Shown here: piece by piece, positions 14,544-45,321 of the stretch
Layout of the letters: every line of letters starts with the position of its first letter
How positions within the stretch are numbered: position 1 is the stretch's first letter
Source: Alphaproteobacteria bacterium
GTDB lineage: Bacteria; Pseudomonadota; Alphaproteobacteria; Rs-D84
Direction of reading: 5' to 3'
Assembly: GCA_017511715.1 (NCBI GenBank)
Contig: JAFWJF010000007.1
Span: 73,160-137,159 of the forward strand
Length of the DNA: 64,000 nucleotides
The notes under the pieces: model-generated
Databases searched by the model: none
What the model saw: the letters and a program-made list of their open reading frames with translations, nothing else
Told to the model about the DNA's origin: nothing
Program-made: the position numbers and the translations under genes

Positions 14544-15155
14544 ATGAAAACAAAATTATTATTGATTGGAACAAGCGCATTTGCATTGTCTGTTGCGGGG
14601 GCAAGTGCAACAGAATACAGACCATTTGTTGGCGTTGCCATGGGGGTCCAGGGTATTATTTATGATGATGCAATTGAAGACAGCGCGCCATATTATCTGC
14701 CAAAAGACTTCATTGCGTTTGGTATCGAAGGCGGTATGCGTTTTGGTTCTTATGATAAAATCTATAATGGTGGTTTTTCTGTGAACGTTAATACATCTGA
14801 TTCTGAAAAAGTATCTTATAAGTTCACAAACGAAACATATGCAAAGTTAAAGACAACCACATTAACCACAACATATGACAATTTTATCCGTGTCAGTGGC
14901 AACAAGGCCAAACGTATTGATTTAGTTTTAGGCGCAGGTGTTGGTGCAATGAACTATCATCTTGATTCCCAAATAGCCACAGCAGAAGACGAAACAGCAT
15001 GGTCAACAGCTTTGGCTTTCAAGGCGGGGCTTGATTTCGAATTAACCAAAAACTTAACCCTGTCTGCGAACATGCGTATGTTTGTCCCGACACGTGAACA
15101 TTATAACATTGCGGCATCATATGTTGCTGGTGGTGCGATAAAATATATATTCTAG
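14544..15155 (+). CDS. Outer-membrane beta-barrel protein (8-stranded OmpA/OMP_b-brl-like)
   Basis: Signal peptide, alternating amphipathic strands (LVLGAGVG, FKAGLDFEL), C-terminal Y-x-F. Confidence 0.75.
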   Translation: MKTKLLLIGTSAFALSVAGASATEYRPFVGVAMGVQGIIYDDAIEDSAPYYLPKDFIAFGIEGGMRFGSYDKIYNGGFSVNVNTSDSEKVSYKFTNETYAKLKTTTLTTTYDNFIRVSGNKAKRIDLVLGAGVGAMNYHLDSQIATAEDETAWSTALAFKAGLDFELTKNLTLSANMRMFVPTREHYNIAASYVAGGAIKYIF

Positions 15156-15202: not shown

Positions 15203-15272
15203 ATGATTATTTTCCATATAGAAACTAAAAACGGTGGCGAACGCCACCGCAAACAAAAGTTTAAGTGAAACT

Positions 15273-15575
15273 TTATTCAACCCAGATATTTGCACGGGTT
15301 GCAGAATTGGTTGACCCCACAGGTATAGTAATTTCATTTGTACGCGTAACGGTGACGGTTCCGTCCGCAGCACTTACCGAAGTCACGATTGCACCGGTGC
15401 CCTGGGTGACGTTTGATGCGGACAATTTTGCCTGTTTCGCGGTGTCCAATGCATTATAAGCACCCTTAACATAACTGGCGGTTGCGACGTTACCATCAGT
15501 GGCCGCCGTCCCTGGTGCCGCCATTGCGGGTGAAATCATTGTTAAAATTGATAAAATACAAAATACTTTTTTCAT
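15273..15575 (-). CDS. Small secreted fibre-family protein (minimal member, 100 aa)
   Basis: Signal peptide; DGNVATASYVKGAYNAL motif shared with neighbours; ends ITIPVG..NIWVE. Confidence 0.75.
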   Translation of the reverse strand: MKKVFCILSILTMISPAMAAPGTAATDGNVATASYVKGAYNALDTAKQAKLSASNVTQGTGAIVTSVSAADGTVTVTRTNEITIPVGSTNSATRANIWVE

Positions 15576-15670
15576 GGTTCAAACAAAATATTTTTTATTA
15601 TATTAATTTATTAACTTGTTTTTTCTGAATGATTGCACAGGACGCGCAATCATTCAGGTTGTTTTTATTT

Positions 15671-17215
15671 TTACGATTCTGTGTATTTAACAGAAGCACT
15701 GTTAATGGACGTGTTAACCGTACCACTGGTCACAGAACCTGTGACTTGCGCGGTGCCAGCGGCTTCGCTTGTCCAATCAGTGACTGTTGCAACAGTCCCT
15801 GTAATCGCAGTACTTGCCAATGAAGAAGTCAACGTTACATCTTTGATTGTTTCAACTACACCGGCTTGTTTTGCCATACTGCTTGTTGCGGTTGTAATTG
15901 CAGAACGAACAGCTTTTTCTGTTGGTAATGATGTGTCAGCACCGGTTGCCCCAACAGAAGTGACTATTGTTCCACTCTTAAAGTTCGTTGTTTTCAAGTT
16001 AGTAATCGAATTACCTGTTCCTTCGGCATCAATAGTCTTGTTCGTGAAAGTATTAGTGCTGCTTGCCGTCACCATACCAGATGTAGCAGTTGCAACTTTT
16101 TCATCAACATAACCCTTGGTGGTTAAACCCGTACCGGTATATGTTGTTGGTGCCGCTGCAGCCTGGATACCATTTGTAAGGCTTACGCCATTTGTATCAA
16201 CAGTGATACCGCCACCAGACTTTGCTTTAACCGCAAGAGTTGTACCATCTTTCGACAAACCGTTTCCGGCACTTTGGATTGCGTTATCAGCCTTAGTACC
16301 TTGTGCAGCAGTTGCATATGCGTTTGATGCGGTGTATGCCGCGGAACCTAAACCATGAACGGCAACATCTGTACCATCAACAGCGATTGTACCGTTTGCT
16401 GTACCTTCAACAACAGATTGAACCGCGCTATCTGCCAAGTCCAAAGATGTCTGCACACCGGAAGCCAGGGCAGTTTTTGCAACTGTACCAGCTGTTAATT
16501 TTGCACCATCCAAAGCACTTGTTGGTTGTAATGCGGTATCTGCCTTTGCACCTTGTGCGGCGGTTGCATATGTACCAGATTTAACCTGTAATGCGCCGGT
16601 TGTTGTGTTCTTTTCGATTGTTGTGCCATCTACTTTGACGCTGATTGTTTTAGAACCATCCGTAGTACCGGCAAATTCCAAACCACCTTTGTCTGTCAAA
16701 TCTGCGCTAACTGTTGTTCCAGATTTCGTTAAACCGTTACCAGCCGTTTGCAGTGCAGAGTCTGCTTTTGTACCTTGTGCAGAGCTTGCATATGCGGTTG
16801 ATGCGGTGTATGCTGCAGAACCTAAGCCTTTAACAGATACATCTGTACCTTTGACACTAATAGTACCGTTTGCAGAACCTGTTGTGATATCCGCCTTTTG
16901 CAATGCGTTTGCACCGGCAGATGCATTTGATCTTATTGTTGCAAGGTCGGAAATTGTATCTTGCTTGGTATCTTGTAATTTATTAACAGCCTTAATCGCA
17001 GCATTATATGCGCCCTTAACATAGCCGGCAGTTGCAACTTTGCCATCATTGGCAGTTGATGTCGCCAATGCATATTTTGGTGGGTTTGTTGCAGATGCAG
17101 CACCAGATGCAGTTGAACCAGGGTCACCGGCAACAACATCGCCAACGGCGGCGCCTGCCATCATTGGGGCGGCGGTTAAAATCGCGACCAACGATATTCC
17201 AAGTAATTTTTTCAT
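15671..17215 (-). CDS. Secreted fibre-family protein (514 aa) with duplicated tail-fibre-like module
   Basis: MKKLLGISLVA signal; ATAGYVKGAYNAAIKAVNK; two copies of ANGTI.V.GTDV.V.GLGSAAYTAS.AYA..AQGTKAD.A.Q.AGNGL.K.GTT, 474 bp apart; VATVTDW near the C-terminus. Confidence 0.8.
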   Translation of the reverse strand: MKKLLGISLVAILTAAPMMAGAAVGDVVAGDPGSTASGAASATNPPKYALATSTANDGKVATAGYVKGAYNAAIKAVNKLQDTKQDTISDLATIRSNASAGANALQKADITTGSANGTISVKGTDVSVKGLGSAAYTASTAYASSAQGTKADSALQTAGNGLTKSGTTVSADLTDKGGLEFAGTTDGSKTISVKVDGTTIEKNTTTGALQVKSGTYATAAQGAKADTALQPTSALDGAKLTAGTVAKTALASGVQTSLDLADSAVQSVVEGTANGTIAVDGTDVAVHGLGSAAYTASNAYATAAQGTKADNAIQSAGNGLSKDGTTLAVKAKSGGGITVDTNGVSLTNGIQAAAAPTTYTGTGLTTKGYVDEKVATATSGMVTASSTNTFTNKTIDAEGTGNSITNLKTTNFKSGTIVTSVGATGADTSLPTEKAVRSAITTATSSMAKQAGVVETIKDVTLTSSLASTAITGTVATVTDWTSEAAGTAQVTGSVTSGTVNTSINSASVKYTES

Positions 17216-17309
17216 GTTTTCCTTCCTTTTTTTCCTTTCCTAAGAATCTTTTTGCGATTAAATTATAACATAATTCACGCTTTTATTCCAAACACTTTTT
17301 TGCCAAATA

Positions 17310-18008
17310 TTATTCCAAAGTAGGCAAACTGACCAATTTCGTTGTCACAGGCTGTGGGTTGGACCAACTTTCAACATAAGTGATTGTTTTGTTTTCCAAT
17401 GTATTAACCGCGGAATTTACTTCATTAATCGCGCCAACAGCGCTGTCTTTGTCTGATGTGTTCAAACCATCCAAATTACCAACCGTAGAATATACTTCAT
17501 TAATCGCACCAACAACGTTGGTTTGGTCTGTTGTGTTCAAATCATTCAAATTACCAACACTGGCAGATGTTCCTTCGTAATCTTGCAAGGCATCTGCTAT
17601 CTGGGATGCAACAGAACCCGCCACATCTGCACCACCATTCAAGGTTTCAATAGCCTCATGGTCATCGTTAACGATTTTTGCCAAACCATTTACTGGATCC
17701 AAAATCATATCAGAAGTCGATTTTACCTGGTTATCCAATGCGGTCAAATTAGCTGAAACTGATTTGCCGGCCTTGATAAAAGTTCCATCCGTTGTCACGG
17801 CGGTATCGTCAATTAACAAATCGATTTTGTCGGCTGTTGTTTTATACGCGCCACCGACATAAGATGTCGTTGCCAAATTAGAAGTCGCAACCGGGTCAGC
17901 CGCATCTAATTTTGTCAAAGATGCAGAACGGTCACCTTCTGCCGCCATTGCCATCATTGGCGACACGGCCAAAACCGCAACCAAAGATATTCCAAGTATT
18001 TTTTTCAT
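17310..18008 (-). CDS. Secreted fibre-family protein (232 aa), coiled-coil type
   Basis: MKKILGISLVAVLAVSPMMAMA signal; ATTSYVGGAY; two VGNL..LNT.D....VGAINEV repeats; ITYVESW near the C-terminus. Confidence 0.8.
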   Translation of the reverse strand: MKKILGISLVAVLAVSPMMAMAAEGDRSASLTKLDAADPVATSNLATTSYVGGAYKTTADKIDLLIDDTAVTTDGTFIKAGKSVSANLTALDNQVKSTSDMILDPVNGLAKIVNDDHEAIETLNGGADVAGSVASQIADALQDYEGTSASVGNLNDLNTTDQTNVVGAINEVYSTVGNLDGLNTSDKDSAVGAINEVNSAVNTLENKTITYVESWSNPQPVTTKLVSLPTLE

Positions 18009-18127
18009 TTCTTCCTTCCCTTTTTTCCTTTGAATAAAATAAGAAATATTTTTTATATCGAAATATTTTCCATTTTATCCGCCTTGGACGGTTGCGCCTA
18101 AACGCAACCGCCCAAAATGGGAATTAA

Positions 18128-19171
18128 TTAATTCCTAAACGAACTAATCGTCATTGTGGATGTGGTATCGTTACCACTTGCCCCGCCCCAAGCCGTTGCG
18201 ACAGGAATTGCAGTGCCATCGATTGCTTCAATACCACCGGCAAGACTTACCAAGTTACCCGCAACACCTGCACCCTCGGTCAAAATTGTATGAGCTTGTG
18301 CTTGTGCAGCAGTAACGGTTGAATCAGATTTGTCTTGTTTCGCCGCCAAATCAGTTGTGTAATCAGCCACAGCAGTTGCAGCATTATCCCAAGCAGTTTT
18401 TTGAGCTTCTGTTACAAAAGCGTTATTTGCATCTGTTGCGACATATGCAGGATTCAATTGGTTAGTAGCAGATAATTCATCCTGTTTGCCAGACCATGTT
18501 GTTTTTTCTGCATCCGTCACGAATCGGTGATCTGCATCCGTTGTGATATCAGATGCAGCGCCAGTTGTTGCGACAGTTGCCAAACCTGTGATATCAGATG
18601 CTGCACCGGTTGTTGCGACTGTTGCAAGACTCCCTGGTTGAACCGCTGTGTCTGCCAAGCCCAAAGATGTAACAACACCAGATGCCAATTGAGTTGTGCC
18701 GATACTGCCAGCCTTGACTTCTAATTGTTTGTTGGCGTTTAATCCAACTGTTGTATCATCGACTTTTACGCTAAAAACACCTTCGGCACTTTTCGCCAAA
18801 CCGTCACCAGCAGATGTTGCAGATGTGCTGACTGCATTTTTGATTGCATAACCGATTGTGCCTTCAACATAACCTTCATCATTTGCATTATATGTTGCAA
18901 GTGCAGCCTTATCTTTGATCTCTTTCCTTACAGAACCGGCGGTTTGATCATTACCGTTTAATTTTGTAACGGCGGCATTAACATTTGCCAAATCGCCTTC
19001 TACTGCATTATACGCGCCCTTTACATAAGATTGGGTTGTGAATGCAGAACCAGTTGTATCGTTCAAAGTACCGGCGATTGTGACGGCGGACCCCAGTTCG
19101 CCCTCTGCCATTGCCATCATTGGCGACACAGCCAAAACCGCAACCAATGATATTCCAAGTATTTTTTTCAT
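18128..19171 (-). CDS. Secreted fibre-family protein (347 aa)
   Basis: Same signal peptide; FTTQSYVKGAYNA; LATVATTGAASDIT twice; HRFVTDAEKTTW / AFVTEAQKTAW; IPVATAW near the C-terminus. Confidence 0.8.
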   Translation of the reverse strand: MKKILGISLVAVLAVSPMMAMAEGELGSAVTIAGTLNDTTGSAFTTQSYVKGAYNAVEGDLANVNAAVTKLNGNDQTAGSVRKEIKDKAALATYNANDEGYVEGTIGYAIKNAVSTSATSAGDGLAKSAEGVFSVKVDDTTVGLNANKQLEVKAGSIGTTQLASGVVTSLGLADTAVQPGSLATVATTGAASDITGLATVATTGAASDITTDADHRFVTDAEKTTWSGKQDELSATNQLNPAYVATDANNAFVTEAQKTAWDNAATAVADYTTDLAAKQDKSDSTVTAAQAQAHTILTEGAGVAGNLVSLAGGIEAIDGTAIPVATAWGGASGNDTTSTMTISSFRN

Positions 19172-19375
19172 GTTTTCCTTCCTTTGTTTTGTTTATTTTC
19201 TCTCTAAAAACTTTTTTCCTTTCCATGACATTTTATCATAAATCGGACAAGTGTTTCAAACGCTTTTTATGTTTTTTTTACGATAAAATGAAAAATATTT
19301 CGATTCGGAAAATATTTTCTATTTTATCCTTTGTAATGGATGGATGGGATAACCCCACCCACCCAAAACAAGAGA

Positions 19376-20461
19376 TTATGACTCTGTACCCGTTTGATAA
19401 GATTGAACCTGTGGGCTGGTTGATGCCTCTGTTCCAGTAAAGGAAAAACCAGTTGCATTAATGTTATCCGCCGTTTGGGTTTCCCAATCTGTCATAGCAG
19501 GAATCGTACCAGAAATAGTTCCCTCAGGCGTAAATGTTACGATTGCCGAATTAATTGTCGCAGTAACACCAGTTTGTGTTGCATAATTGCCTTTTTCATC
19601 TTCAATTGTCTTGATACGATTACTCAAAGCAGTATCCGCATCATAAACAGCCTTTGCACCGGCAACCTGTTCATTTGTTGATGACCCAGTCAAAGTTGAT
19701 GCGATAGAATCTTTCGCAACTTTGTTTTCATCAGCATAATCTTCAGCATAACCTTTTGCATTTTGTTCTGCTGTCGCTGCTGCACCGGCTGCATCATATG
19801 CAGAGGAATCTGTATATGCCGCGGTACCCAAGCCATGAACGGCTATATCTGTACCATCAACAGATACAGTACCGTTTGCTGTACCTTCAGCAACAGATTG
19901 AACCGCGCCGTCTGCCAAGTCCAAAGAATTTTGAACAGCAGTCGCCAATTTAGCCTTGGTTACGTTTCCATCTGCGATTTTTGCTGTTGTAACAGAATCA
20001 GTCGCCAATTTAGCCGCAGTTACGTTCGCATCTACGATATTTTCTGTTTGAACTGCATTGTCAGCCAATTTCGCATTAGTAACCGCATCAGCACCCAACT
20101 TATCTGTGGTTACAGCACCATTATTGATTAAGCCCGTTGTGACAGAGCCAGCCGTAACATTGCCCAAAGTTGTGTTCGCATAGTTGCCTGCCAAACCATC
20201 AGCATATGATTTTGCATCATCAAATGTTTTATTAACTGCTTTGATTGCGGCATTGTATGCGCCCTTTACGTATCCAGCGGTCGCGAACTTGCCGTCGTTT
20301 GTCGCATCTGCCGGCGCCAACCCGTATTTTGGCGCGTTTTGCGCAACAGGTGCATTGGTGGAGACAGTTGCACCAGGATCTGCAGTATCTACCGCAGCGC
20401 CCGCAATCAATGGCATAGCAGTTAAAACCGCCACCAATGATATTCCAAGTATTTTTTTCAT
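19376..20461 (-). CDS. Secreted fibre-family protein (361 aa) with 10-residue VTxxK[LI]A repeats
   Basis: MKKILGISLVAVL signal; ATAGYVKGAYNAAIKAVNK; run of VTTDKLG/VTNAKLA/VTAAKLA/VTTAKIA/VTKAKLA; module shared with the 514-aa paralogue; IPAMTDW. Confidence 0.8.
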   Translation of the reverse strand: MKKILGISLVAVLTAMPLIAGAAVDTADPGATVSTNAPVAQNAPKYGLAPADATNDGKFATAGYVKGAYNAAIKAVNKTFDDAKSYADGLAGNYANTTLGNVTAGSVTTGLINNGAVTTDKLGADAVTNAKLADNAVQTENIVDANVTAAKLATDSVTTAKIADGNVTKAKLATAVQNSLDLADGAVQSVAEGTANGTVSVDGTDIAVHGLGTAAYTDSSAYDAAGAAATAEQNAKGYAEDYADENKVAKDSIASTLTGSSTNEQVAGAKAVYDADTALSNRIKTIEDEKGNYATQTGVTATINSAIVTFTPEGTISGTIPAMTDWETQTADNINATGFSFTGTEASTSPQVQSYQTGTES

Positions 20462-20577
20462 GTTTTCCTTCCTTTTTTTGGTTGTTTTGTTCTTGTTTTG
20501 TTTGTTAATTCTTCGTCTTTTTCTTCTTCTATAATCTCAGTCTATCACAATTCAATTTTTCAATTCAAGTGTTTTTA

Positions 20578-21117
20578 TTATCCACCAAAATCAAAATCTG
20601 GGTCAAAGGTATCTTCGACCGTTATCGCGTCCCAACCATTGCTGGTATAGACGTATTTTTTGCCGTCTTCCACATCACCAGACGTGATAAAACCGGCGTT
20701 ATCAATTTCATCTTTGGTGTAAACATCTGCCGCGTTCGCCTTTGCATCTATGTCAGCGTTTGTTAAATAACCCTTGGCTTCTATTTCTTGTTTGGTGTAA
20801 ACATCCGCCGCGTTCGCCTTTGCATCTATGTCAGCGTCTGTTAAATAGCCCTTGGCTTCTATTTCTTGTTTGGTGTAAACATCCGCCGCATTCGCTTTGT
20901 TTTCAACATCGGCTGTTGTTAAATAGCCCTTGGCTTCTATTTCTTGTTTGGTATAGACGTCGTTCTTGTTCGCCTTTTCCGCGTCAATCTTTTGATAAAC
21001 CGTACGCAAGCCCTTGTCAACATAACCCTGGGTCGTCAAAACCGCAGAATCTGCCAACGCAGCCCCCGTCATTATTGATACAGATGTCATTATTCCGAAA
21101 AATGCTAACTTTTTCAT
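20578..21117 (-). CDS. Secreted fibre-associated protein with 26-aa tandem repeats
   Basis: Signal peptide MKKLAFFG..ALA; LTTQGYVDKG; repeats AN..DVYTKQEIEAKGYLT.AD...K; C-terminal WDAITVEDTFDPDFDF. Start moved to 21117 after AAAGGGG. Confidence 0.78.
   Translation of the reverse strand: MKKLAFFGIMTSVSIMTGAALADSAVLTTQGYVDKGLRTVYQKIDAEKANKNDVYTKQEIEAKGYLTTADVENKANAADVYTKQEIEAKGYLTDADIDAKANAADVYTKQEIEAKGYLTNADIDAKANAADVYTKDEIDNAGFITSGDVEDGKKYVYTSNGWDAITVEDTFDPDFDFGG
20700..20980. repeat. 78-bp tandem repeat (~3.5 copies), in frame
   Basis: TTTGGT(G/A)TA recurs at 20713, 20791, 20869 and 20947 with near-identical intervening sequence. Confidence 0.92.
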
Positions 21118-21137
21118 TTCCCCTTTCCTTTTCTGCA

Positions 21138-21806
21138 TTATTCAGTGAAATCAAAATTTTCATCAAACTCGTCTACGACACTTATCGAATCGTAATTCAC
21201 ATTTTGTTGCGTGGTCGATGGGTATGTCGATGTCGCCCCAACATTATCCAATAAACCATCTATTTCGTCTGCCGTGTAGTAATCATCCGCCAACACAGTT
21301 TCAACCTGATTCTGAACCGCCGCAGAATCTAAAGATATCGTGTTGCCAGTTTTTACCAAACCATCACCAACACTTATTGCATCTTGCTTTCCATTTTCAA
21401 GGTTTTGTACACGGTCCGCCAAATTAGTAAAATCACCCGATGAAATGCCCGCAGTTGATGCCGAACCCGTCGTCGGCTTTATCGTCCCGGCACTCACACC
21501 AGTTGAATGAATATATTTTCCCAAACTTAAACGTGATTCTTCGGCAGAATTTACAGCGTTCGCCTTGGTCGGAACTTTGTTAATCGTCAACGGCGTACCA
21601 CTTGTCACATTTGTTGAACGAATAGACCCCAGCCTTTGTGTCGTTGGGGTCGATGTATTATTAGTCCTTACCACCGATGTGTTTGTACCAACGCGCGCGG
21701 TATTTGTACCCAACATTTTAACACTGGGGGCCGCAGAAACACTGCACATGCCAAAAACCGACATTACCAAAACACTTGATAAAAATCGTATATTAAATTT
21801 GTTCAT
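21138..21806 (-). CDS. Secreted fibre-associated protein with Thr/Ser-rich disordered N-half
   Basis: Signal peptide; LENGKQDAISVGDGLVKTGNTISLD and DYYTADEID fibre-like motifs; C-terminal YDSISVVDEFDENFDF matching the downstream gene. Confidence 0.72.
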   Translation of the reverse strand: MNKFNIRFLSSVLVMSVFGMCSVSAAPSVKMLGTNTARVGTNTSVVRTNNTSTPTTQRLGSIRSTNVTSGTPLTINKVPTKANAVNSAEESRLSLGKYIHSTGVSAGTIKPTTGSASTAGISSGDFTNLADRVQNLENGKQDAISVGDGLVKTGNTISLDSAAVQNQVETVLADDYYTADEIDGLLDNVGATSTYPSTTQQNVNYDSISVVDEFDENFDFTE

Positions 21807-21960
21807 GATTCCTTTCCTTGTCAGATATGATATCACAAAACCAAAATATAACCAAGGGTTTTTTAAGACTTTTTTTCAAATTTTTTCACAAAGCCCGAAT
21901 TTCCGGCATTTATAATAAAAAATGGGGCGTTGCCGCCCCAATCATTAATAATGACATACA

Positions 21961-23766: not shown

Positions 23767-24990
23767 TTAATTTTTCTTGAATATCAGCGAAGTATTTATC
23801 CCACCAAATGCAAAATTGTTGTTCATCACAAAATCAGCACTAAAACTGCGCCCCTGTTTCGTTATATAGTCCAATGCACCACACTTGTCATCAACAGTGT
23901 TCAAATTCAACGTCGGTGCAAACCAATTATTATTCATCATTTGAATCGACCATATCGATTCCAATGCACCACATGCACCCAAAGTATGTCCAACATAACT
24001 TTTCAAGCTGCTGACCGGAACAGTGTCGCCAAAAACCCGATTTGTTGCGACAGATTCTGCGATATCACCGAATGTCGTTCCCGTACCATGCAAACATATA
24101 TAGCCTATATCTTTTGGGTTCAGATTTGCAGATTCCAACGACAATTCTAAACAACGTGCTATCGTATCAGGGTTTGGTTGTGTAATATGCGTACCATCTG
24201 TATTTGTGCCGAAACCAACGATTTCTGCATAAATCTTGGCACCACGCGCGATTGCGTGTTCTCGTTCTTCCAATATCAGTGTTCCGGCACCACATCCGAT
24301 AACAAGCCCATCGCGATTTACATCAAATGGCGAAGGCGTTTTTTCAGGCGTATCGTTTTTTGTGCTGGTCGCGTACAGAGTATCAAATACAGCAACCTGG
24401 GTTGGGTCTAGTTCTTCGGCACCACCCGCAATCATTATGTCTTGTGCGCCAGACTTTATATTTTCATACGCAAACCCAACCGACAAACTGCCCGAAGTGC
24501 ATGCCGTTCCGCTGGGAATCAAACGCCCAGTTGTCTTGAAATATAACGATATATTAACCGCTGCGGTTTGTGGCATTATTTTTATATAAGACGAAGATGT
24601 GACATTACCAATTTCATTTGTTTTAACCATGGAAAAGAAATCTGCCACAGGACCCGCCGACCCAAACGAAGAACCATATGCGACACCTGTGCGTCCACTG
24701 GTTAATTCTGGCGAATCTAAAAGCCCCGCATCTTTTAACGCGTTTTCTGCAGAATATACCGCCATCACAGATACTGGTCCCATGGTGCGCAACACTTTGC
24801 GCGTAAAATGTTCCGGCGCGGTAAAATCTGCCGGCGCAGCTAAATGTGAATTTAACCCGCGTATTGCCGCTAAATTATCCATTTTACACACTGCATTTTT
24901 ATATACGTGCAAACGATTAAATGCGCCCCCCAGGTCATTACCCAGCGCACTAACCAAGCCCATACCAGTAACAACAACCCTTCTTGTCAT
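23767..24990 (-). CDS. Beta-ketoacyl-ACP synthase, ApeR/FabF-like (aryl polyene cluster)
   Basis: RRVVVTGMG, TACTSG catalytic Cys, HGTGT, KSYVGHTLGACG, NNFAFGGIN. Confidence 0.9.
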   Translation of the reverse strand: MTRRVVVTGMGLVSALGNDLGGAFNRLHVYKNAVCKMDNLAAIRGLNSHLAAPADFTAPEHFTRKVLRTMGPVSVMAVYSAENALKDAGLLDSPELTSGRTGVAYGSSFGSAGPVADFFSMVKTNEIGNVTSSSYIKIMPQTAAVNISLYFKTTGRLIPSGTACTSGSLSVGFAYENIKSGAQDIMIAGGAEELDPTQVAVFDTLYATSTKNDTPEKTPSPFDVNRDGLVIGCGAGTLILEEREHAIARGAKIYAEIVGFGTNTDGTHITQPNPDTIARCLELSLESANLNPKDIGYICLHGTGTTFGDIAESVATNRVFGDTVPVSSLKSYVGHTLGACGALESIWSIQMMNNNWFAPTLNLNTVDDKCGALDYITKQGRSFSADFVMNNNFAFGGINTSLIFKKN

Positions 24991-24991
24991 A

Positions 24992-25717
24992 TTAAATCAA
25001 GCCCCCATTTACAGATATAACCTGGCGCGTTATATAACCCGCATCATCAGATAACAAATAGGCAACCAAACTTGCCACTTCATCTGGCGTTCCGGCACGT
25101 CGCATCGGTATTGCTTGTTCAACAACATCTTTTGGCAAGTCTGCTGTCATATCTGTTTCTATGATACCAGGTGCAATACAATTTACTGTTATATTGCGCC
25201 GCGCCAATTCAATCGCCAAAGATTTACACGCACCGATAATTCCTGCCTTGGAAGCAGCATAATTTGTTTGCCCACGATTTCCCATAATACCAGACACAGA
25301 AGACAATGCTATTATACGCCCCCCCTTGCGCGCAGATATCATGGGCATAACAGTCGGATGTAAAACATTATACAAACCGTCCAGATTTGTATGCACCACC
25401 TTATCCCATACATCGCCTTCTATTGCTGGAAATGGAGCATCCTTGTTTATTCCGGCATTACAAATAACACCCCAATATGCCCCATGTTCTGTGATATCTG
25501 TGTTTATAACATCTTTTGTCTGTTCGCGATTTGCAATATCAAAACACAAAAGCCTTGCCTTTACTCCAAAAGATTTTACATCTTTAAGAGTTTCATTTGC
25601 TGCATCAACATTAGAATTATAATGCAACACCAAATCATAACCTGCACGTGCAAGATATATAGCAATAGACCGGCCAATACCACGACTTGCGCCTGTGATA
25701 AGTATTGTTTTATTCAT
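24992..25717 (-). CDS. 3-oxoacyl-ACP reductase, ApeQ/FabG-like
   Basis: TGASRGIG, NAG, GNRGQTNYAASKAG, YITRQVISVNGG. Confidence 0.92.
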   Translation of the reverse strand: MNKTILITGASRGIGRSIAIYLARAGYDLVLHYNSNVDAANETLKDVKSFGVKARLLCFDIANREQTKDVINTDITEHGAYWGVICNAGINKDAPFPAIEGDVWDKVVHTNLDGLYNVLHPTVMPMISARKGGRIIALSSVSGIMGNRGQTNYAASKAGIIGACKSLAIELARRNITVNCIAPGIIETDMTADLPKDVVEQAIPMRRAGTPDEVASLVAYLLSDDAGYITRQVISVNGGLI

Positions 25718-26180
25718 TTTTAGTCTCCATAAATTGTTTTATGTCATCTGGTCGAAATGCGTTTAATGCACCTGTTGCAATGACATTGTTGTCTTCATCT
25801 ACAATATTACAATCAAACGATGCGATGTTTTGATCGCAAAACATAGATTTAACATGTATAAAATATGAGTGGCCTGCTAAATACACAGGTTTTAACACAG
25901 ATATTTTTCGTGAACCCAACACAAACCCTACCGCCGGCGTAGCACTTGGATTCTTATGCAAATCACTAAGCCCAACACAACATGCAATACTCTGTGCCAT
26001 AAATTCCAAAGATGCCCACGAAGGAATTCCGCCTAAGTTTTTATCAAACAACAAATCTGTATCTTTTACATCAACACGCGTGACCAAAGTTTGATTTTCA
26101 TAATCAAATTCTTCCACGTCTGATAAAAAAATCATAGGGGCCTTTTGTGGTATAAGTTTTGTTAAATCGTACTTGCTCAT
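25710..26180 (-). CDS. Hotdog-fold 3-hydroxyacyl-ACP dehydratase subunit, ApeP-like
   Basis: LIPQKAPMIFL..PSWASLEFMAQ..VGFVLGSR pattern and cluster position. Confidence 0.82.
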   Translation of the reverse strand: MSKYDLTKLIPQKAPMIFLSDVEEFDYENQTLVTRVDVKDTDLLFDKNLGGIPSWASLEFMAQSIACCVGLSDLHKNPSATPAVGFVLGSRKISVLKPVYLAGHSYFIHVKSMFCDQNIASFDCNIVDEDNNVIATGALNAFRPDDIKQFMETKNE

Positions 26181-26181
26181 T

Positions 26182-27318
26182 TTACCGTCCAATTATTACG
26201 CTTGCGTTACTGCCCCCAAAAGCAAAGGCGTTACATAACACATTATTGATGTTTTTTTTGTTTTGCGTGGTTGCAAGTTTTATCTTTGCACAATCTGTTG
26301 CATATTCACCATCAAAAATATGTGGTATAACAAATTGATGTTTTATCATTAACCAAGACAATGCCACACTAACCGCCCCGGCCGCGCCAAGAGTGTGCCC
26401 TGTCAGCGGTTTAGTTGATGCACACAAAACATTATCCCCGAAAACAGAATTTATTGCTAACGATTCCATCGCATCATTGGCCACAGTCCCTGTTCCATGC
26501 ATGTTTATAAAATCAATTGCATCTGACGCAAGACCTGCATTTGTTAATGCGGAATTCATGGAAGCGATAGCCCCACTACCTGTTGGATCGGGACTGGTTA
26601 AATGGTATGCGTCTGAACTTTCGCCAACACCCAGTAATTTTATACCCTCTTCGCCACGCACCATTATAAAAAGGGCTGCCGCTTCACCCAAATTGATACC
26701 ATCTCGATTTCGGGACATAGGGTTTGTATGTTTATAACTAAGTGCCGACAAAGCATTAAAACCATTCAAAGCAAAATCACACCGCGCATCAACCCCACCA
26801 ACCAAAACCGCATCACAAATATCTTGTTCTATTAAATCTTTGGCATCTTGAAAAACTTTCGCACTGGACGAACAAGCCGTTGATACAGTATATGCAGGAC
26901 CTGCAAAACCAGTTTTTTCACGTAAAAAAGCAGTCGGTGAATATAATTCTATTTCAGACAAAGAAAACTCTTGCGGTAGCGTTCCTGTTTCTAGTGCAAT
27001 GTTCAAATGCTTTTGGGCTTCGTGTATTCCGGTATTGCTTGCCCCGATAATAATTCCAAGTCTATTTAATGGATAGTCTGATTTCAATTTTAATATGGGG
27101 TCTTCAATTTGCTTTAATGCTGCAAGTAATAAATCATAACATCTTATCTTTTGAGTTGTTTCAATATTAACAGACCCAAATGGCACCCGCACGTCAGCAA
27201 CTTCTGGTTTAACACGAAACATACCTGATGTATCACCGCGTTTTGCGTTTGCAACGATTTCATCGTGCGTTATTCCTAACGCACACACAAAACCCAAATC
27301 TTGCAATACTACCGTCAT
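26182..27318 (-). CDS. Beta-ketoacyl synthase, ApeO-like
   Basis: GPAYTVSTACSSSAK, RDGINLGEAA, HGTGT..ND.ME, STKPLTGHTLGAAG, NAFAFGGSN. Confidence 0.9.
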   Translation of the reverse strand: MTVVLQDLGFVCALGITHDEIVANAKRGDTSGMFRVKPEVADVRVPFGSVNIETTQKIRCYDLLLAALKQIEDPILKLKSDYPLNRLGIIIGASNTGIHEAQKHLNIALETGTLPQEFSLSEIELYSPTAFLREKTGFAGPAYTVSTACSSSAKVFQDAKDLIEQDICDAVLVGGVDARCDFALNGFNALSALSYKHTNPMSRNRDGINLGEAAALFIMVRGEEGIKLLGVGESSDAYHLTSPDPTGSGAIASMNSALTNAGLASDAIDFINMHGTGTVANDAMESLAINSVFGDNVLCASTKPLTGHTLGAAGAVSVALSWLMIKHQFVIPHIFDGEYATDCAKIKLATTQNKKNINNVLCNAFAFGGSNASVIIGR

Positions 27319-27394
27319 CTATATAAACCCACTTGCAAATTATGATTTTTTTCATATAATGCCAGTATTCTATAAAAAAAAGCATTTTTCAAGC

Positions 27395-28027
27395 ATGAAC
27401 AATAAAATATATATTGATGATTTTATTATTTGGCAAGAATCGACAGATGAAAAATTACCAGATTTTTCGTTTATTCCACCAATGGTACGACGTCGCATGT
27501 CCAACATAGAAAAAATTGCGGTGGGGCTGGCTGGAAAAATTGCCCCAGAAAACCCGAATTACACAACTGTATTTGCATCGAAATTTGGCGAATGGGGGCA
27601 AACGATTCAGTTGATTAAACAATTTTTTGATGAAAAAGAAATGTCGCCTGCGGGCTTTAGTAATTCTGTACACAACGCAGCCGCAGGCCTGTTTTCTTTG
27701 CTTACAAAAAACACTAACAGCTACACTTCTATCGCAGCCGGGGATAACACATTGGAAATGGCGATATTAAAAGCATTAACAGAAAAACAAGATGTCATGG
27801 TTGTTTTTGCTGGCGAACACAGTCCTGATATATATTCGCCTGTGTTGGACGGGGAACAGCATGCCTTTGGCATGGCTTTTCTGATTAAACACAGCGGTAA
27901 ACGCGCAATTAAAATTACCCACGGCACAGATAGCGCGGACACACTGACATTTAAAACAATGGCAGATTTTCTGGAAGGGCGCACAAACACTATAACAACA
28001 AAGAATTGGGCAATGCAAAATGATTAA
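27395..28027 (+). CDS. Ketosynthase chain-length factor, ApeC-like
   Basis: IPPMVRRRMS..VFASKFGE..SPAGFSNSVHNAAAG; no catalytic Cys. Confidence 0.88.
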   Translation: MNNKIYIDDFIIWQESTDEKLPDFSFIPPMVRRRMSNIEKIAVGLAGKIAPENPNYTTVFASKFGEWGQTIQLIKQFFDEKEMSPAGFSNSVHNAAAGLFSLLTKNTNSYTSIAAGDNTLEMAILKALTEKQDVMVVFAGEHSPDIYSPVLDGEQHAFGMAFLIKHSGKRAIKITHGTDSADTLTFKTMADFLEGRTNTITTKNWAMQND

Positions 28028-28760
28028 AATAATACGTTCATTTTTGTGTGCTTTTTGTTTTTGTGTTTTTGGTTTGGGTGGTTTGTTGATAGGTTCTGTA
28101 ATTTTTCCGATTATTTTACTGATATACAAACCTGAAAAACAGCAAAAAATATTTGTGAACACAATTCATTTGTCGTGGCGATTTTTTACTTGGTTAATGT
28201 GTTTTTTACACTTGATAAAAATAAACTGCCCGGAAAGCAAACGATTGAAATCTTTGCGTGGAACCATCGTGATTGCCAATCATCCATCTTTGATTGATGT
28301 CGTTATTTTGGTGTCCAAAATCCCAAATTCTGTATGCGTTGTCAAAGGAAGCCTGTTCAAGAATCTGTTTATACGTAAAGTTATCGGAAGAACCTATTTA
28401 TCTAACACAATGGAACCAGATGAATTTATCGCGTGCGGTTCTGATGTTTTATCAAAAGGATACAACATTGTTATTTTTCCCGAAGGAACCAGAACAATAC
28501 CAGATAAAAAGATTCATTTACATCGGGGGTTTGCCTATTTACAGACAGCAACCGGCGCAAACATTTTACCGATAAAAATTACTAACACCCCCAAAATACT
28601 TGGAAAGAACCAAAAATGGTGGGATGTCGGTGCATCGGTATCTGTTTACGATATTATTATTAAGCCATCCATTTCTTATGATACAAAAAGCCCATTACAA
28701 AAACGTGCTGCCGCCATTGATATTACAAACAAAGCCAAAAACTTGTTGTTTCAGGCATAA
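28020..28760 (+). CDS. PlsC-type acyltransferase, ApeD-like
   Basis: ANHPSLID (HxxxxD), FPEGTRT. Confidence 0.88.
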   Translation: MIKIIRSFLCAFCFCVFGLGGLLIGSVIFPIILLIYKPEKQQKIFVNTIHLSWRFFTWLMCFLHLIKINCPESKRLKSLRGTIVIANHPSLIDVVILVSKIPNSVCVVKGSLFKNLFIRKVIGRTYLSNTMEPDEFIACGSDVLSKGYNIVIFPEGTRTIPDKKIHLHRGFAYLQTATGANILPIKITNTPKILGKNQKWWDVGASVSVYDIIIKPSISYDTKSPLQKRAAAIDITNKAKNLLFQA

Positions 28761-28815
28761 ATTCCTTGAATTTTGATTTGTATATTGCTAGCATTGATCG
28801 CATAAAGGAAACACT

Positions 28816-29091
28816 ATGAAACGAGATTTATTAGAACGCGAAATTAAGGAACTGATTGTATCTGCACTAGATTTAGAAGACATAAGCGCAGATGACATTG
28901 ATACAAATGCGCCATTGTTTGGAACAGGACTTGGGCTTGATTCAATTGATGCACTGGAATTAGGCATGGCATTAAAGAAAAAGTATCAGGTAAATTTCAA
29001 ATCCGATAAAGAGGCTAATAAAGAATACTTTAAGTCCGTTGCCCATTTGGCAGCATATATAGCAGAATCAAAAAACATCACATTGGAGTAA
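28816..29091 (+). CDS. Acyl carrier protein 1 (ApeE-like)
   Basis: PLFGTGLGLDSIDALEL phosphopantetheine site. Confidence 0.92.
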   Translation: MKRDLLEREIKELIVSALDLEDISADDIDTNAPLFGTGLGLDSIDALELGMALKKKYQVNFKSDKEANKEYFKSVAHLAAYIAESKNITLE

Positions 29092-29097
29092 ATTAAC

Positions 29098-29352
29098 ATG
29101 TATACAAAAGACGAGATTTTTAATCATATAAAAAACATATTGGTTAAAGAATTTGATGCGGATGCTGACAAAATAACCCCTGAAACCCTTTTGGTTGAAG
29201 ATTTAGATTTAGATTCAATTGATGCGGTAGATTTGGTTGTCCGTCTGCAAAAAATTATTGGTTGCAAAGTAGAGCCTGATGATTTCAAACAAATTCGCAC
29301 TTTACAAGATATGGTTGATGCTATTGAAAAAATCGTTAATAAAGCTAATTAA
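29098..29352 (+). CDS. Acyl carrier protein 2 (ApeF-like)
   Basis: LDLDSIDAVDL..FKQIRTLQD. Confidence 0.92.
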   Translation: MYTKDEIFNHIKNILVKEFDADADKITPETLLVEDLDLDSIDAVDLVVRLQKIIGCKVEPDDFKQIRTLQDMVDAIEKIVNKAN

Positions 29353-29875
29353 GATTATTGCCTTTGGGGTCACGATTTTTTACCCGTTTATTGTGTTTTT
29401 GATATTAAAAAAACACATGCCTGTTCGTTTTTTGGCTTTATTTTTATTAACAATCGCTGGCATGACATTTATACGCAATAAAAACATTTGGATATTTGCA
29501 TGTTTATTACTGCTTGGCACCGGACTGATTATCTTTAACGACAATATTTTTCTGAAATTATATCCCGTTTTAATGAATATCAATGTCGGTTTAATGTTTG
29601 CGTTATCTTTGCGGGGCACCCCTTTAATTGAAAAATTTGCAAAAAGAATGGGGCAGAATCTGAACACGAAACAAAAAGAATATGCCAAAAGCGCAACTTG
29701 TGCATGGGCTGTATTTATGCTTTGTTTGACAATTGTTTCTTTCATAACAATATTCTTATCTGATGAAGCATGGGTTCTATTTAACGGTTTGATTTCCTAT
29801 ATTTTGATTGCTATCATGATGGGTACAGAATTTATAATTCGTAAAAGGTTTGTGAATGTTCACAGAAATAAATAA
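29318..29875 (+). CDS. COG4648-type membrane protein (ApeG-like)
   Basis: YPFIVF..LKLYPVLMN..PLIEKFA..WVLFNGLISY..EFIIR; position after the two ACPs. Confidence 0.82.
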   Translation: MLLKKSLIKLIKIIAFGVTIFYPFIVFLILKKHMPVRFLALFLLTIAGMTFIRNKNIWIFACLLLLGTGLIIFNDNIFLKLYPVLMNINVGLMFALSLRGTPLIEKFAKRMGQNLNTKQKEYAKSATCAWAVFMLCLTIVSFITIFLSDEAWVLFNGLISYILIAIMMGTEFIIRKRFVNVHRNK

Positions 29876-31553: not shown

Positions 31554-31555
31554 AA

Positions 31556-35459: not shown

Positions 35460-35500
35460 AGGATGCATTATAAAATAAAAAAAGCCAAAGGCAAGTCGCA

Positions 35501-36412: not shown

Positions 36413-36511
36413 CACCCCCCCTATTCTATCAAAACGCATATAAAAATGTTGACAAAACAACATATTTTGCTAATTTCTTAGAAAGAATACGTATTGAAAA
36501 AGGATATGTTT

Positions 36512-36817: not shown

Positions 36818-36820
36818 AAT

Positions 36821-36841
36821 AAAACGCCCCGTTGGGCGTTT
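36821..36841. terminator. Intrinsic terminator
   Basis: AAACGCCC-cgtt-GGGCGTTT. Confidence 0.65.
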
Positions 36842-37938: not shown

Positions 37939-37956
37939 GGTGTCTCCATATTGTGT

Positions 37957-38610: not shown

Positions 38611-38706
38611 ATTGTATTGTATTGTAATTTATGGTGTCGGTTTTTCAAGCTTTTTCTTGATATTTGATACTTTGTGTACAATCATAATAAAAAAAGAGGT
38701 TTTGCA

Positions 38707-45313: not shown

Positions 45314-45321
45314 AATATTCC

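What the first reader, a model, noticed from the sequence alone, without database searches (positions are those of the whole stretch)
15273..21806. Seven-gene array of secreted proteins built from phage-tail-fibre-like modules between shared end motifs: candidate undescribed surface fibre system
Seen: seven co-oriented genes, all with Sec-type signal peptides, four beginning MKK[IL]LGISLVA. Five share an early T-x-x-YV-[KG]-GAY motif (ATASYVKGAY, ATAGYVKGAY twice, ATTSYVGGAY, TTQSYVKGAY) and a sixth has TTQGYVDKG. Six have a C-terminal [IV]-x-x-x-[TDE]-x-[WF] motif (VATVTDW, ITYVESW, IPVATAW, IPAMTDW, ITVEDTF, ISVVDEF). The middles are different combinations of repeats: GLGSAAYT..AAQG.KAD.A.Q, AGNGL.K.GTT, LNT.D..VGAINEV, LATVATTG, HRFVTDAEK..W, VTxxKLA decads and DVYTK.EI. 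From memory these repeat types occur in trimeric phage tail-fibre shafts. No phage genes, YadA anchor, autotransporter barrel or prepilin cleavage site is present. Inference: domesticated fibre-shaft modules are exported and assembled, possibly head-to-tail through the conserved end motifs, into variable surface filaments or adhesins. The 100-aa member could be a tip or cap.
Basis: partly seen in the sequence, partly recalled or inferred. Interest (0 to 1): 0.85.

Follow-up and report, generated by a model that had tools for sequence, protein, structure and literature searches.

The report
Exported phage-fibre-like proteins, gut symbiont
A tiny-genome gut bacterium that probably depends on other cells carries a conserved set of genes for exported, three-stranded fibre proteins built partly from phage tail-fibre pieces, most likely surface fibres for holding on to a partner.

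Summary
In detail: seven co-oriented minus-strand genes (15273-21806), each with a Sec-type signal peptide and the quoted motifs. They are two sequence families, not one: five 'A' genes (g1-g5) and two 'B' genes (g6, g7). The array is an expanded copy of a conserved cassette, B1 - B2 - one or more long A - one ~100-aa short A. That exact order occurs in 20 of the 39 family-bearing loci among 57 related loci fetched, mostly gut and rumen Alphaproteobacteria / 'Candidatus Enterousia' MAGs. No Pfam, NCBIfam or PDB family fits. The middles share modules with phage tail fibres, but the signal peptide and end modules were not seen in viral contigs. A g5 homotrimer model passes its controls (0.79 against 0.00). 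The 845-kb genome shows no capsid, portal, sheath, baseplate or usher match. Best reading: Sec-exported homotrimeric envelope or surface fibres, analogous to Bdellovibrio MAT fibres, probably for partner attachment. Head-to-tail assembly, surface location and target remain untested. It is a new variant of a known kind, of moderate to high interest.

The parts
21138..21806 (-). g7, type B1. It has a signal peptide, then a conserved ~100-aa polar and basic N-region (APSVKMLG.., QRLGSIR, RLSLGKYIH), then fibre-like modules (GDGLV..NTISLD, YYTADEID), then a C-tail V.D.FD..FDF.
   Evidence: ORF. There are 47 homologues, all unnamed or 'hypothetical'. No Pfam family was found. The N-region also heads 733-aa and 928-aa fibrous ORFs in other genomes of the genus.
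20578..21117 (-). g6, type B2 (an alternative start is at 21138). It has a signal peptide, LTTQGYVDKGL, four KANxADVYTKxEI repeats, and a C-end YVYTSNGW..ITVEDTFDPDFDF.
   Evidence: See (78-nt tandem repeat). phrog_5004 matches at 2.7e-9. Weak, non-significant PDB alignments were found to NadA repeats (E 0.88) and to a chain carrying a foldon tag (E 0.72). The tail is homologous to the g7 tail.
19376..20461 (-). g5, long A. It has a signal peptide, PKY..ATAGYVKGAYNAA, VT..KLA decads, an NGT.SVDGTD.AVHGLG.AAY module, and the C-module ..TIPAMTDW...
   Evidence: PHROG tail-fibre hits are 7.5e-19 and 1.5e-17. The homotrimer model scores 0.79 against a best control of 0.00. Viral contigs match only residues 90-305.
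18128..19171 (-). g4, long A, with LATVATTG and HRFVTDAEK..W modules.
   Evidence: It has one short hit in cultured phages, at residues 207-257 with E 5e-4.
17310..18008 (-). g3, long A, with LNT.D..VGAINEV repeats.
   Evidence: phrog_25848 (tail fibre) matches at 2.8e-11 over residues 105-204. An in-frame 75-nt repeat-copy variant appears in contigs of other samples.
15671..17215 (-). g2, long A and the longest member at 514 aa, with two GLGSAAYT..AAQGTKAD units and AGNGL.K.GTT units.
   Evidence: Residues 369-442 hit tail fibre-like proteins of cyanophages at E 1e-4.
15273..15575 (-). g1, short A. It has a signal peptide, ATASYVKGAYNAL, KQAKL, and the C-module ..VTSVSAADGTVTVTRT.EITIPVGS....RANIWVE.
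   Evidence: See (26-row alignment, mean column identity 56%). It comes last in 31 of 32 loci that hold one. hhalign to long A gives probability 91%, E 9e-7. Its profile finds only 164 cluster representatives among 1.84 billion at E <= 1e-3.
21923..21940 (-). Terminator-like hairpin between the argS stop and g7; it marks the upstream edge of the array.
   Evidence: Consensus scan only.
15231..15250 (-). Terminator-like hairpin just after the g1 stop; it marks the downstream edge of the array.
   Evidence: Consensus scan only.
20577..20606 (-). Promoter-like site upstream of g5. Similar boxes lie at 19230-19259 (g4) and 17262-17291 (g2). Each is followed by an A-rich leader and AAGGAAGGAAAAC-ATG.
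   Evidence: These are pattern matches, not evidence of function.
14544..15155 (+). Convergent 203-aa outer-membrane-barrel-like protein ending ..KYIF. It is a frequent neighbour of the cassette and is not shown to belong to it.
   Evidence: tblastn finds it beside the cassette in 9 of the 57 loci. The only family hint is TIGR04565 at E 0.005, below its cut-off.

Best explanation
The array encodes Sec-exported, anchor-less homotrimeric fibre proteins of the cell envelope, most likely displayed on the cell surface. The host is a reduced-genome gut alphaproteobacterium related to 'Candidatus Enterousia' MAGs (order Rs-D84 according to PMC12306168). It is an expanded copy of a conserved cassette with four protein types: B1 (g7), B2 (g6), one to several variable long A fibres (g5-g2), and one conserved minimal A fibre (g1). 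The proposed course is as follows. Each gene appears to be transcribed from its own promoter. The signal peptide takes the chain across the inner membrane and is cut off. Three chains then fold into a parallel fibre. The lineage-specific N-terminal modules ('..YVKGAYNA..' in A; the ~100-aa 'SVKMLG..RLSLGKYIH' region in B1) hold the fibre at the envelope or serve export. The middles, partly shared with phage tail fibres and with autotransporter stalks, set length and are swapped or copy-varied in frame between strains. The C-terminal modules nucleate trimerisation and/or bind the target. The likely role is attachment to the partner cells on which this metabolically dependent bacterium is thought to live, as proposed for Bdellovibrio MAT fibres and prey. 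Shown by computation: gene structure, family relations, cassette conservation, module sharing with phages, a trimer model for one member, and no phage-particle, usher or S74 match. Inferred only: surface location, route across the outer membrane, which end is proximal, and the target.
For: All seven proteins have signal-peptide-like N-termini. For residues 40-361 of g5 as three copies, the score was 0.79 and the best of 3 controls 0.00. That mark was reached by 20 of 30 proteins solved as pairs of one chain and by 1 of 23 solved as single chains. The runs agree in at least 93% of contacts and partner pLDDT is at least 81. These counts hold only roughly, because my own alignment and three copies were used. 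The confident interface runs nearly unbroken from residue 99 to 355. Phage relationship: PHROG tail-fibre families hit g3 (2.8e-11) and g5 (7.5e-19, 1.5e-17). In viral contigs, 241 stretches are related to g5. The best 80 match only residues 90-305, and 0 of 77 ORFs carrying the shared module have YV.GAYN; the one crude signal-peptide flag looks false. Of the 120 best homologues of g5, 59 carry YV.GAY, and almost all of these start with the MKK-type signal peptide. Another 59 carry neither motif nor signal peptide, and many of them start like phage fibres (PF24243). The array is not a prophage. Its neighbours are argS, fatty-acid-type genes, PPDK and an ABC transporter. The 97%-complete genome gives no match to Phage_sheath_1, Baseplate_J, Phage_capsid or Phage_portal. 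Conserved cassette: of 57 related loci 39 hold members, all co-oriented. Twenty read exactly B1-B2-L(1-2)-S, and most of the rest are cut by contig ends or are expanded. Lineage restriction: the short-A profile matched 58 of 151 genomes sampled in the order, 56 of them among the 107 of the same genus, and 0 of 29 in the other five families. The B1 profile matched 34 of 151, all in the genus. Strain variation: six joints in contigs of other samples replace or drop modules by net 159, 75, 60, 120, 510 and 141 nt, all multiples of three. Module shuffling: one locus has a B1 N-region joined to a short-A C-module, and the short-A C-module ends proteins of up to 714 aa. The same genome uses g6-like DVY[ST]K repeats in a true YadA-anchored adhesin. 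Lifestyle: Rs-D84/Enterousia lack most biosynthesis and transporters and are proposed to be obligate symbionts or parasites (PMC12306168, whole text).
Against: There is no experimental or proteomic evidence that the proteins are made, trimeric or on the surface. Only one member (g5) was modelled as a trimer, and the pass may partly reflect likeness to solved phage fibres. No outer-membrane anchor, lipobox, sorting motif or dedicated export gene lies in the cassette, so a periplasmic or released location cannot be excluded. The N-motif region of g5 (residues 40-98) has no confident contacts in the model, so its role is open. Monomer AlphaFold2 models are poor (pLDDT 62 and 63). Foldseek found nothing in PDB or BFVD, so fibre-fold likeness rests on sequence modules and the trimer model. 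g1, g4 and g7 have no PHROG hit at E <= 0.1, and g2 has only a weak one. Adhesion to a partner is inferred from analogy and lifestyle alone. RNA support is weak: only contigs from metatranscriptome libraries were seen, and these can hold DNA.
Confidence: 0.6

Rival explanations
1. Composite filament. The four types join end to end, as the four proteins of the phage T4 long tail fibre do (recalled). B1 would be the base, B2 an adaptor, the long A trimers interchangeable shaft segments, and short A the cap that has the N-joint but no further C-joint.
For: Gene order is fixed and short A comes last in 31 of 32 loci that hold one. The N-module is shared by long and short A. B1 and B2 share a C-tail that is more alike within a genome than between genomes: mean score 24.9 against 20.6, with 1 of 5000 permutations reaching the observed value. 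The N-motif region is not used in the homotrimer interface of the model.
Against: Each gene seems to have its own promoter and hairpin. Cassettes with one to four long genes work with one short gene, which independent fibres explain equally well. Two extra long A genes sit on another contig with no B or short partner beside them.
Confidence: 0.12
2. Periplasmic or envelope-structural trimers, for example spacers or tethers between the membranes and the wall, rather than exposed adhesins.
For: There is a Sec signal but no recognisable route or anchor for the outer membrane in the cassette. The proteins are rich in coiled-coil-like segments. The B1 N-region is basic and polar and could bind wall or membrane components.
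Against: Lengths range from 100 to 514 aa within one genome, and B1-headed relatives reach 928 aa, which fits poorly with a fixed periplasmic width. In-frame repeat and module variation between strains and lineage-restricted, fast-diverging middles are typical of exposed proteins. The modules are shared with phage receptor-binding fibres and with the passenger of a YadA-type adhesin.
Confidence: 0.1
3. Released soluble fibres, secreted into the medium through the type IVb-pilus or type II-like secretin. They might act as decoys for phages or as bridging lectins rather than staying on the cell.
For: The genome keeps TcpQ, secretin, PilO-, T2SSE- and T2SSF-type genes. Type IVb pilus systems are known to export Sec-dependent soluble proteins recognised by their N-terminal part (recalled: TcpF of Vibrio cholerae, CofJ of ETEC; not checked in a paper here).
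Against: TcpQ is found in 149 of 151 genomes of the order, whether or not they hold the cassette, so co-occurrence says nothing. No linkage exists between the loci. Conserved N-modules are more simply retention devices, as argued for MAT fibres.
Confidence: 0.08
4. Decaying remnants of a prophage or of autotransporter passengers, with no present function.
For: The middles share modules with phage fibres and with autotransporter stalks.
Against: All seven frames are intact with signal peptides. The cassette order is kept across many species-level genomes. Variants between strains are in frame. The genome is highly reduced yet spends about 6.5 kb here. No phage structural genes were found.
Confidence: 0.02

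Closest known systems
Bdellovibrio bacteriovorus mosaic adhesive trimer (MAT) fibres (PMC10769870; passages read)
   Same: Both have a signal peptide, a conserved N-terminal part, a homotrimeric fibre mosaic with phage tail-fibre-like modules, and diversified distal parts. Both are multigene repertoires in a bacterium that lives on other cells, and in neither is the outer-membrane route or anchor known.
   Different: MATs are 626 aa or more among those quoted and carry a ~130-aa beta-rich N-domain; 13 of 21 end in an S74 peptidase/chaperone domain. Here the proteins are 100-514 aa. The A-type N-part is a short motif plus a predicted helix (low-confidence monomer model). No S74 domain is in the proteins or the genome. 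Both ends are conserved while the middle varies, and the genes form a fixed four-type cassette. Homology to the MAT N-domain could not be tested, because no Bdellovibrio sequence was at hand. The paper's Supplementary Tables 3-4, which list MAT-like proteins of other bacteria, could not be seen.
Trimeric autotransporter adhesins (type Vc; YadA, NadA)
   Same: Both are Sec-exported trimeric fibres with repetitive stalk motifs. The g6 DVYTK repeats align weakly to NadA (E 0.88, not significant) and match at 28% identity the passenger of this genome's own YadA-anchored protein.
   Different: None of the seven proteins has a YadA-like C-terminal anchor, whereas the same search finds one in the true adhesin (6.7e-10). 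These proteins therefore cannot secrete themselves by the type Vc route.
Phage tail fibres and fibritin-like fibres
   Same: Sequence modules are shared (PHROG hits; viral contigs), along with homotrimeric parallel architecture in the model. The g6 C-end aligns weakly to a foldon tag (E 0.72, not significant). Atlas leads to Fibritin_C clusters scored 0.80-0.81, below the level that counts.
   Different: Phage versions have no signal peptide and have virion-attachment N-termini such as PF24243. Here the ends are lineage-specific, the genes are chromosomal among housekeeping genes, and no virion genes were found in the genome.

Membership tests
Bdellovibrio MAT superfamily | Signal peptide at the N-terminus | tested here: met
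   Read from the translations of all seven proteins. No predictor was run.
Bdellovibrio MAT superfamily | [quoted passage not shown] | tested here: inconclusive
   No MAT N-domain sequence or structure was available. A-type proteins have only a ~20-60-aa variable leader plus the YVKGAY motif, predicted helical in a low-confidence monomer model. B1 has a conserved ~100-aa polar region with no Pfam or PDB match.
Bdellovibrio MAT superfamily | Homotrimeric intertwined fibre | tested here: met
   Tested for g5 only, by a model: score 0.79, best of 3 controls 0.00. The mark was reached by 20 of 30 proteins solved as pairs and 1 of 23 solved as single chains. Runs agree in at least 93% of contacts, and pLDDT is at least 81. 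This is not a measurement.
Bdellovibrio MAT superfamily | C-terminal S74 peptidase/chaperone domain (S74 subgroup) or a globular adhesive tip domain (NS74 subgroup) | tested here: not met
   There is no Peptidase_S74 match in the proteins or in the genome. The C-ends are short ~45-70-aa modules. One paralogue on contig C3 has a Cys-rich C-extension with no family.
Bdellovibrio MAT superfamily | Display on the cell surface | not testable with these tools
   This needs labelling or fractionation.
Trimeric autotransporter adhesin (type Vc) | YadA-like C-terminal membrane anchor (PF03895) | tested here: not met
   No hit at E <= 1 in any of the seven proteins. As a positive control in the same genome, C4:55455-57248 hits at 6.7e-10.
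Virion tail fibre of a (pro)phage, GTA or tailocin | Encoded with virion structural genes and lacking an export signal | tested here: not met
   The neighbours are housekeeping genes. The genome has no sheath, baseplate J, HK97-type capsid or portal match. All seven proteins have signal peptides.
Chaperone-usher pili | Usher (PF00577) with adjacent chaperone | tested here: not met
   No usher match in the genome, and none among the neighbours.
Type IV pilins | Prepilin leader with G/[FM]xxxE cleavage motif | tested here: not met
   The N-termini are classical signal peptides ending A-x-A. Type IVb machinery exists elsewhere in the genome.
Fibritin foldon (PF07921) | C-terminal foldon domain recognised by the family model | tested here: inconclusive
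   No Pfam hit at E <= 1. The g6 C-end aligns to a foldon tag in a PDB chain, but with whole-sequence E 0.72. Atlas leads are below 0.9.

The most novel reading that the evidence does not exclude
The fixed B1-B2-long-short cassette builds one hierarchical, cell-borne organelle. It would be a bacterial counterpart of a phage long tail fibre, with a base (B1), an adaptor (B2), exchangeable phage-derived receptor-binding segments (long A) and a cap (short A). It would be exported by an as yet unknown anchor-less route, possibly with the help of the type IVb pilus system that is kept throughout this order. By this reading it is the main host-attachment device of an uncultured, obligately partner-dependent gut alphaproteobacterium.
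Probability: 0.12. Interest if true: 0.85.

Novelty: new variant of a known kind. Interest (0 to 1): 0.6.

Why it matters
Rs-D84/Enterousia bacteria are widespread in the guts of ruminants, horses and birds. Their genomes are under 1 Mb, and they are thought to live off other cells, but nothing is known about how they meet or hold a partner (PMC12306168). This cassette is a concrete candidate for that contact apparatus. It is lineage-specific and conserved in gene order. It varies in the way contact proteins do, and it is costly for so small a genome. If it is a contact apparatus, the use of phage receptor-binding modules as exported bacterial fibres would not be peculiar to predatory Bdellovibrio. 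It would recur in an unrelated, partner-dependent lineage, here with different end modules and no known anchor. That sharpens an open question: how do anchor-less trimeric fibres reach and stay on a Gram-negative surface? The long A fibres could also serve as probes to find the unknown partner of these uncultured bacteria.

Tried and rejected
Curated families. Pfam and NCBIfam scans of the seven proteins gave nothing above any cut-off. A Pfam scan of the 24 g7-type proteins gave only single stray hits, and the two paralogues on C3 gave none.

PDB by sequence. Profiles A1 and A2 found nothing useful (A1: none at E <= 1; A2: best E 4.8). A3 had a best E of 0.16. g2 and g4 found nothing. g6 gave only E 0.72 and 0.88.

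Structure. AlphaFold2 monomers of g1 and g5 had pLDDT 62.1 and 63.1. The g5 model found no match in PDB and one meaningless match in BFVD at E 8. The g1 model was not searched, being too poor. The ESM Atlas gave only leads below 0.9.

Cultured-phage tblastn gave few, short hits: g4 had 1 record and g2 had 5.

Link to the type IVb pilus. TcpQ is in 149 of 151 genomes of the order, so co-occurrence with the cassette cannot be tested.

Operator idea. The palindrome GAAAATATTTTC upstream of g3 and g4 is not enriched: 5 matches against 2.6 expected, and 10 of 100 shuffles reach 5. The 71-nt 'inverted repeat' around g4 comes from this palindrome being present in both spacers.

Recent gene conversion of the 5' ends is unlikely, since these are only 65-75% identical in DNA.

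Expression. Three metatranscriptome runs from two studies hold contigs over parts of g2, g3, g5, g7 and the neighbouring barrel gene. These are contigs, the libraries can hold DNA, and the runs were found with these very genes. The lack of RNA contigs over argS is therefore no evidence, and depth was not used. Shares under 0.2 were not used for habitat.

Supplementary Tables 1, 3 and 4 of PMC10769870 (lists of MAT and MAT-like proteins) may bear on the novelty claim.

Searches for prior description: 'Enterousia' (16 papers), 'Rs-D84' (12 papers), and 'tail fiber-like' + 'signal peptide' + 'adhesin' + 'trimeric' (0 papers). None of the listed titles or abstracts, nor the passages read, describes these genes.

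Full report
WHAT IS THERE. The region 15273-21806 holds seven intact minus-strand ORFs. In transcription order they are g7 (21806-21138), g6 (21117 or 21138-20578), g5 (20461-19376), g4 (19171-18128), g3 (18008-17310), g2 (17215-15671) and g1 (15575-15273). Every one starts with a basic n-region, a hydrophobic core and an A-x-A-type site. The internal repeats are real tandem DNA repeats. Terminator-like hairpins lie just upstream of g7, after argS, and just downstream of g1. The spacers before g5, g4, g2 and g7 share -35 and extended -10-like boxes, an A-rich leader and the ribosome-binding stretch AAGGAAGGAAAAC-ATG. The genes therefore look like separate, strongly translated units rather than one operon; these are pattern matches only. 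The 5' ends are 65-75% identical in DNA, so their likeness is kept by selection and not by recent conversion.

TWO FAMILIES, NOT ONE. BLASTP within the genome links g1-g5 to each other (E 7e-9 to 7e-52) and to two further paralogues on contig C3. g6 matches only the passenger of a 597-aa protein elsewhere on the contig, and g7 matches nothing. Profile comparison agrees: short A against long A gives probability 91% (E 9e-7), and g7-type against long A gives 0.1%. I call g1-g5 family A (long A = g2-g5; short A = g1), g7 'B1' and g6 'B2'. B1 and B2 share only a C-terminal tail, V.V.D.[FW]D..F. In this genome that tail occurs in just these two of 3098 ORFs. Across 28 genomes the two tails are more alike within a genome than between genomes (mean score 24.9 against 20.6; 1 of 5000 permutations reaches the observed value).

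THE ORGANISM. The window is part of an 845,597-bp, 8-contig genome rated 97% complete. The related loci come mostly from rumen and gut MAGs labelled Alphaproteobacteria, proteobacterium or 'Candidatus Enterousia'. By its relatives the genome belongs to this group. Enterousia is assigned to order Rs-D84, whose members have genomes under about 1 Mb. They lack most biosynthesis, respiration and standard transporters and are proposed to be obligate symbionts or parasites (PMC12306168, whole text; one passage of PMC13196213).

A CONSERVED CASSETTE. I classified all ORFs of the 57 related loci with four HMMs. Thirty-nine loci hold members, always co-oriented. Twenty read exactly B1-B2-L-S (18 loci) or B1-B2-L-L-S (2 loci). 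Ten of the other 19 are cut by a contig end, and most of the rest are expansions or lack one type (12LLSLS, 12LLSS, 1LLLS, 12LLLS1, 12S, 1LS, LS). Short A is the last family member in 31 of the 32 loci that hold one. The window, B1-B2-L-L-L-L-S, is the largest array seen. Downstream synteny (a 203-aa barrel-like protein, TM2, YjbR, an ABC transporter, PPDK) is often kept, while the upstream side varies. In a sample of 151 genomes of the order, the short-A profile matched 58: 56 of 107 in the same genus (plus the window's own genome), 1 in a sister genus, and 0 of 29 in the other five families. Full-length short A occurred in about 15. The B1 profile matched 34, all in the genus. Against 1.84 billion cluster representatives the short-A profile finds only 164 proteins at E <= 1e-3, and g7 has 47 homologues, all unnamed. 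The family is small, lineage-restricted and uncurated: Pfam, NCBIfam and PDB sequence searches give nothing significant.

RELATION TO PHAGE FIBRES. PHROG tail-fibre families hit g3 (2.8e-11) and g5 (7.5e-19, 1.5e-17). g6 hits a PHROG of unknown function (2.7e-9), g2 has one weak hit (0.022), and g1, g4 and g7 have none at E <= 0.1. The 120 best database relatives of g5 fall into two classes. Fifty-nine carry YV.GAY, and nearly all of these have the MKK-type signal peptide; the named ones are from Alphaproteobacteria MAGs. Fifty-nine have neither, and many of them begin like phage fibres, with the PF24243 'phage tail tip' N-terminus confirmed on three. In IMG/VR, 241 stretches are related to g5, but the best 80 match only residues 90-305. 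None of 77 ORFs carrying the shared module has the N motif or a credible signal peptide. The middles are therefore common currency with phages, while the signal peptide and both end modules belong to the bacterial family. The genome shows no sheath, baseplate J, HK97-type capsid or portal match, and the neighbours are housekeeping genes. This is not a prophage, GTA or tailocin. The g6-type stalk repeat is also used in this genome's true YadA-anchored adhesin. None of the seven proteins has such an anchor.

STRUCTURE. Three copies of g5 residues 40-361, given with a 22-row alignment, scored 0.79 against 0.00 for the best of 3 controls. That mark was reached by 20 of 30 proteins solved as pairs of one chain and by 1 of 23 solved as single chains. 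The runs agree in at least 93% of contacts and partner pLDDT is at least 81. The counts hold only roughly, because my own alignment and three copies were used, and the pass may owe something to solved phage fibres. Confident contacts run from residue 99 to 355, through the decads, the NGT..V..GLGSAAY module and the C-module. Residues 40-98, which hold the N motif and the following predicted helix, are not among them. Monomer models are poor and gave no fold matches.

MODULARITY AND VARIATION. Contigs from other samples differ from the window by six replaced or dropped segments of net 159, 75, 60, 120, 510 and 141 nt. All are in frame, and two of them have the length of one tandem repeat unit and lie at those repeats in g3 and g5. 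One related locus has a B1 N-region fused to a short-A C-module. The short-A C-module ends proteins of up to 714 aa. The B1 N-region heads fibrous ORFs of 733 and 928 aa in other genomes of the genus. The system thus consists of a few conserved N-modules and C-modules with freely exchanged middles.

HOW IT MOST LIKELY WORKS. Shown by computation are export signals, trimer propensity for one member, phage-shared middles, lineage-specific ends, a conserved four-type cassette, in-frame variation, and no phage-particle, usher or S74 match. I infer that the proteins cross the inner membrane by Sec and form parallel homotrimers. They are then held at or beyond the outer membrane by their conserved N-modules. 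The variable remainder would serve as length-setting and contact surface for attachment to a partner cell. The route across the outer membrane is unknown. A type IVb pilus/secretin set is present but is universal in the order (149 of 151 genomes), so it cannot be linked to the cassette by distribution. I put 0.6 on 'exported homotrimeric envelope or surface fibres'. Within that, I put roughly even odds on partner adhesion as the role.

RIVALS. (a) An end-to-end composite filament (0.12). The fixed order, the single terminal short A, the shared N-module and the co-varying B tails fit, but nothing was tested. (b) Periplasmic structural trimers (0.10). The length range and strain variation speak against this. 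(c) Released soluble fibres (0.08). (d) Non-functional remnants (0.02).

COMPARISON WITH THE KNOWN. The nearest described thing is the Bdellovibrio MAT superfamily: signal peptide, conserved N-domain, trimeric phage-like fibre, variable tips, surface display, anchor unknown (PMC10769870, passages). The present family works like it on paper but fails or cannot be tested on defining features. It has no S74 domain and no large tip domains, its N-part is different and shorter, and its proteins are much shorter. It also adds a fixed four-type cassette. It is not a trimeric autotransporter (no anchor), not a virion fibre (signal peptides, no virion genes), and not a chaperone-usher or type IV pilus subunit.

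VERDICT. This is a new, uncurated, lineage-specific family that represents a new variant of a known kind. It matters mainly as a candidate contact apparatus of an uncultured, partner-dependent gut lineage. Interest is 0.6.

Noticed in passing
window 23767-31553 (and 35501-36412): Directly upstream of argS lies a cluster resembling aryl-polyene or special-lipid synthesis. It holds two ketoacyl synthases, a ketoreductase, an ApeP-like dehydratase, a Ketoacyl-synt_2 protein, an AMP-binding protein with an ApeI-like domain, a family-2 glycosyltransferase and a lipid A acyltransferase-like protein. This is notable in a genome said to lack lipid biosynthesis.
   Followed up: partly
G000:C7:60765-65780 and G000:C5:93048-97703 (loci L065, L064): These loci hold type IVb-pilus-like genes (TcpQ, secretin, PilO of the R64 type, T2SSE ATPase, T2SSF platform). 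TcpQ is found in 149 of 151 sampled genomes of the order despite extreme genome reduction, so the pilus is probably central to the lifestyle.
   Followed up: partly
G000:C4:55455-57248 (locus L067): This is a 596-aa trimeric autotransporter with a YadA anchor (6.7e-10). Its passenger shares DVYSK-type stalk repeats with g6.
   Followed up: partly
G000:C4:62634-67562; homologues in L015 7482-12719 and L044 7448-12691: This is a giant (1642-1747 aa) Cys-rich repeat protein with a signal-peptide-like start. In two related loci its homologue lies directly downstream of the fibre cassette on the opposite strand.
   Followed up: no
G000:C3:17867-18496 and 18611-19660 (locus L066): Two further long A paralogues lie away from the cassette, among other predicted outer-membrane and secreted proteins. 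The 349-aa one carries an extra Cys-rich C-terminal region of about 150 aa with no family match, possibly a tip domain.
   Followed up: partly
L053 8157-8933: This is a chimeric gene: a B1-type N-region joined to a short-A-type C-module (..VPVGS....ADVWLQ), placed just after the short A gene. It is direct evidence for module exchange between the two families.
   Followed up: no
window 18059-18070 and 19308-19319: The palindrome GAAAATATTTTC (one copy with a mismatch) sits in the spacers upstream of g3 and g4 and causes an apparent 71-nt inverted repeat around g4. It is not enriched in the window (5 matches against 2.6 expected).
   Followed up: yes
window 28000-46000: This is a low-G+C stretch (31-35% against about 39% for the genome). 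It encodes glycosyltransferases (GT2, GT4), an FkbM/RfbT-like methyltransferase, a radical SAM protein and a hydrolase, and it looks like a surface polysaccharide locus.
   Followed up: no
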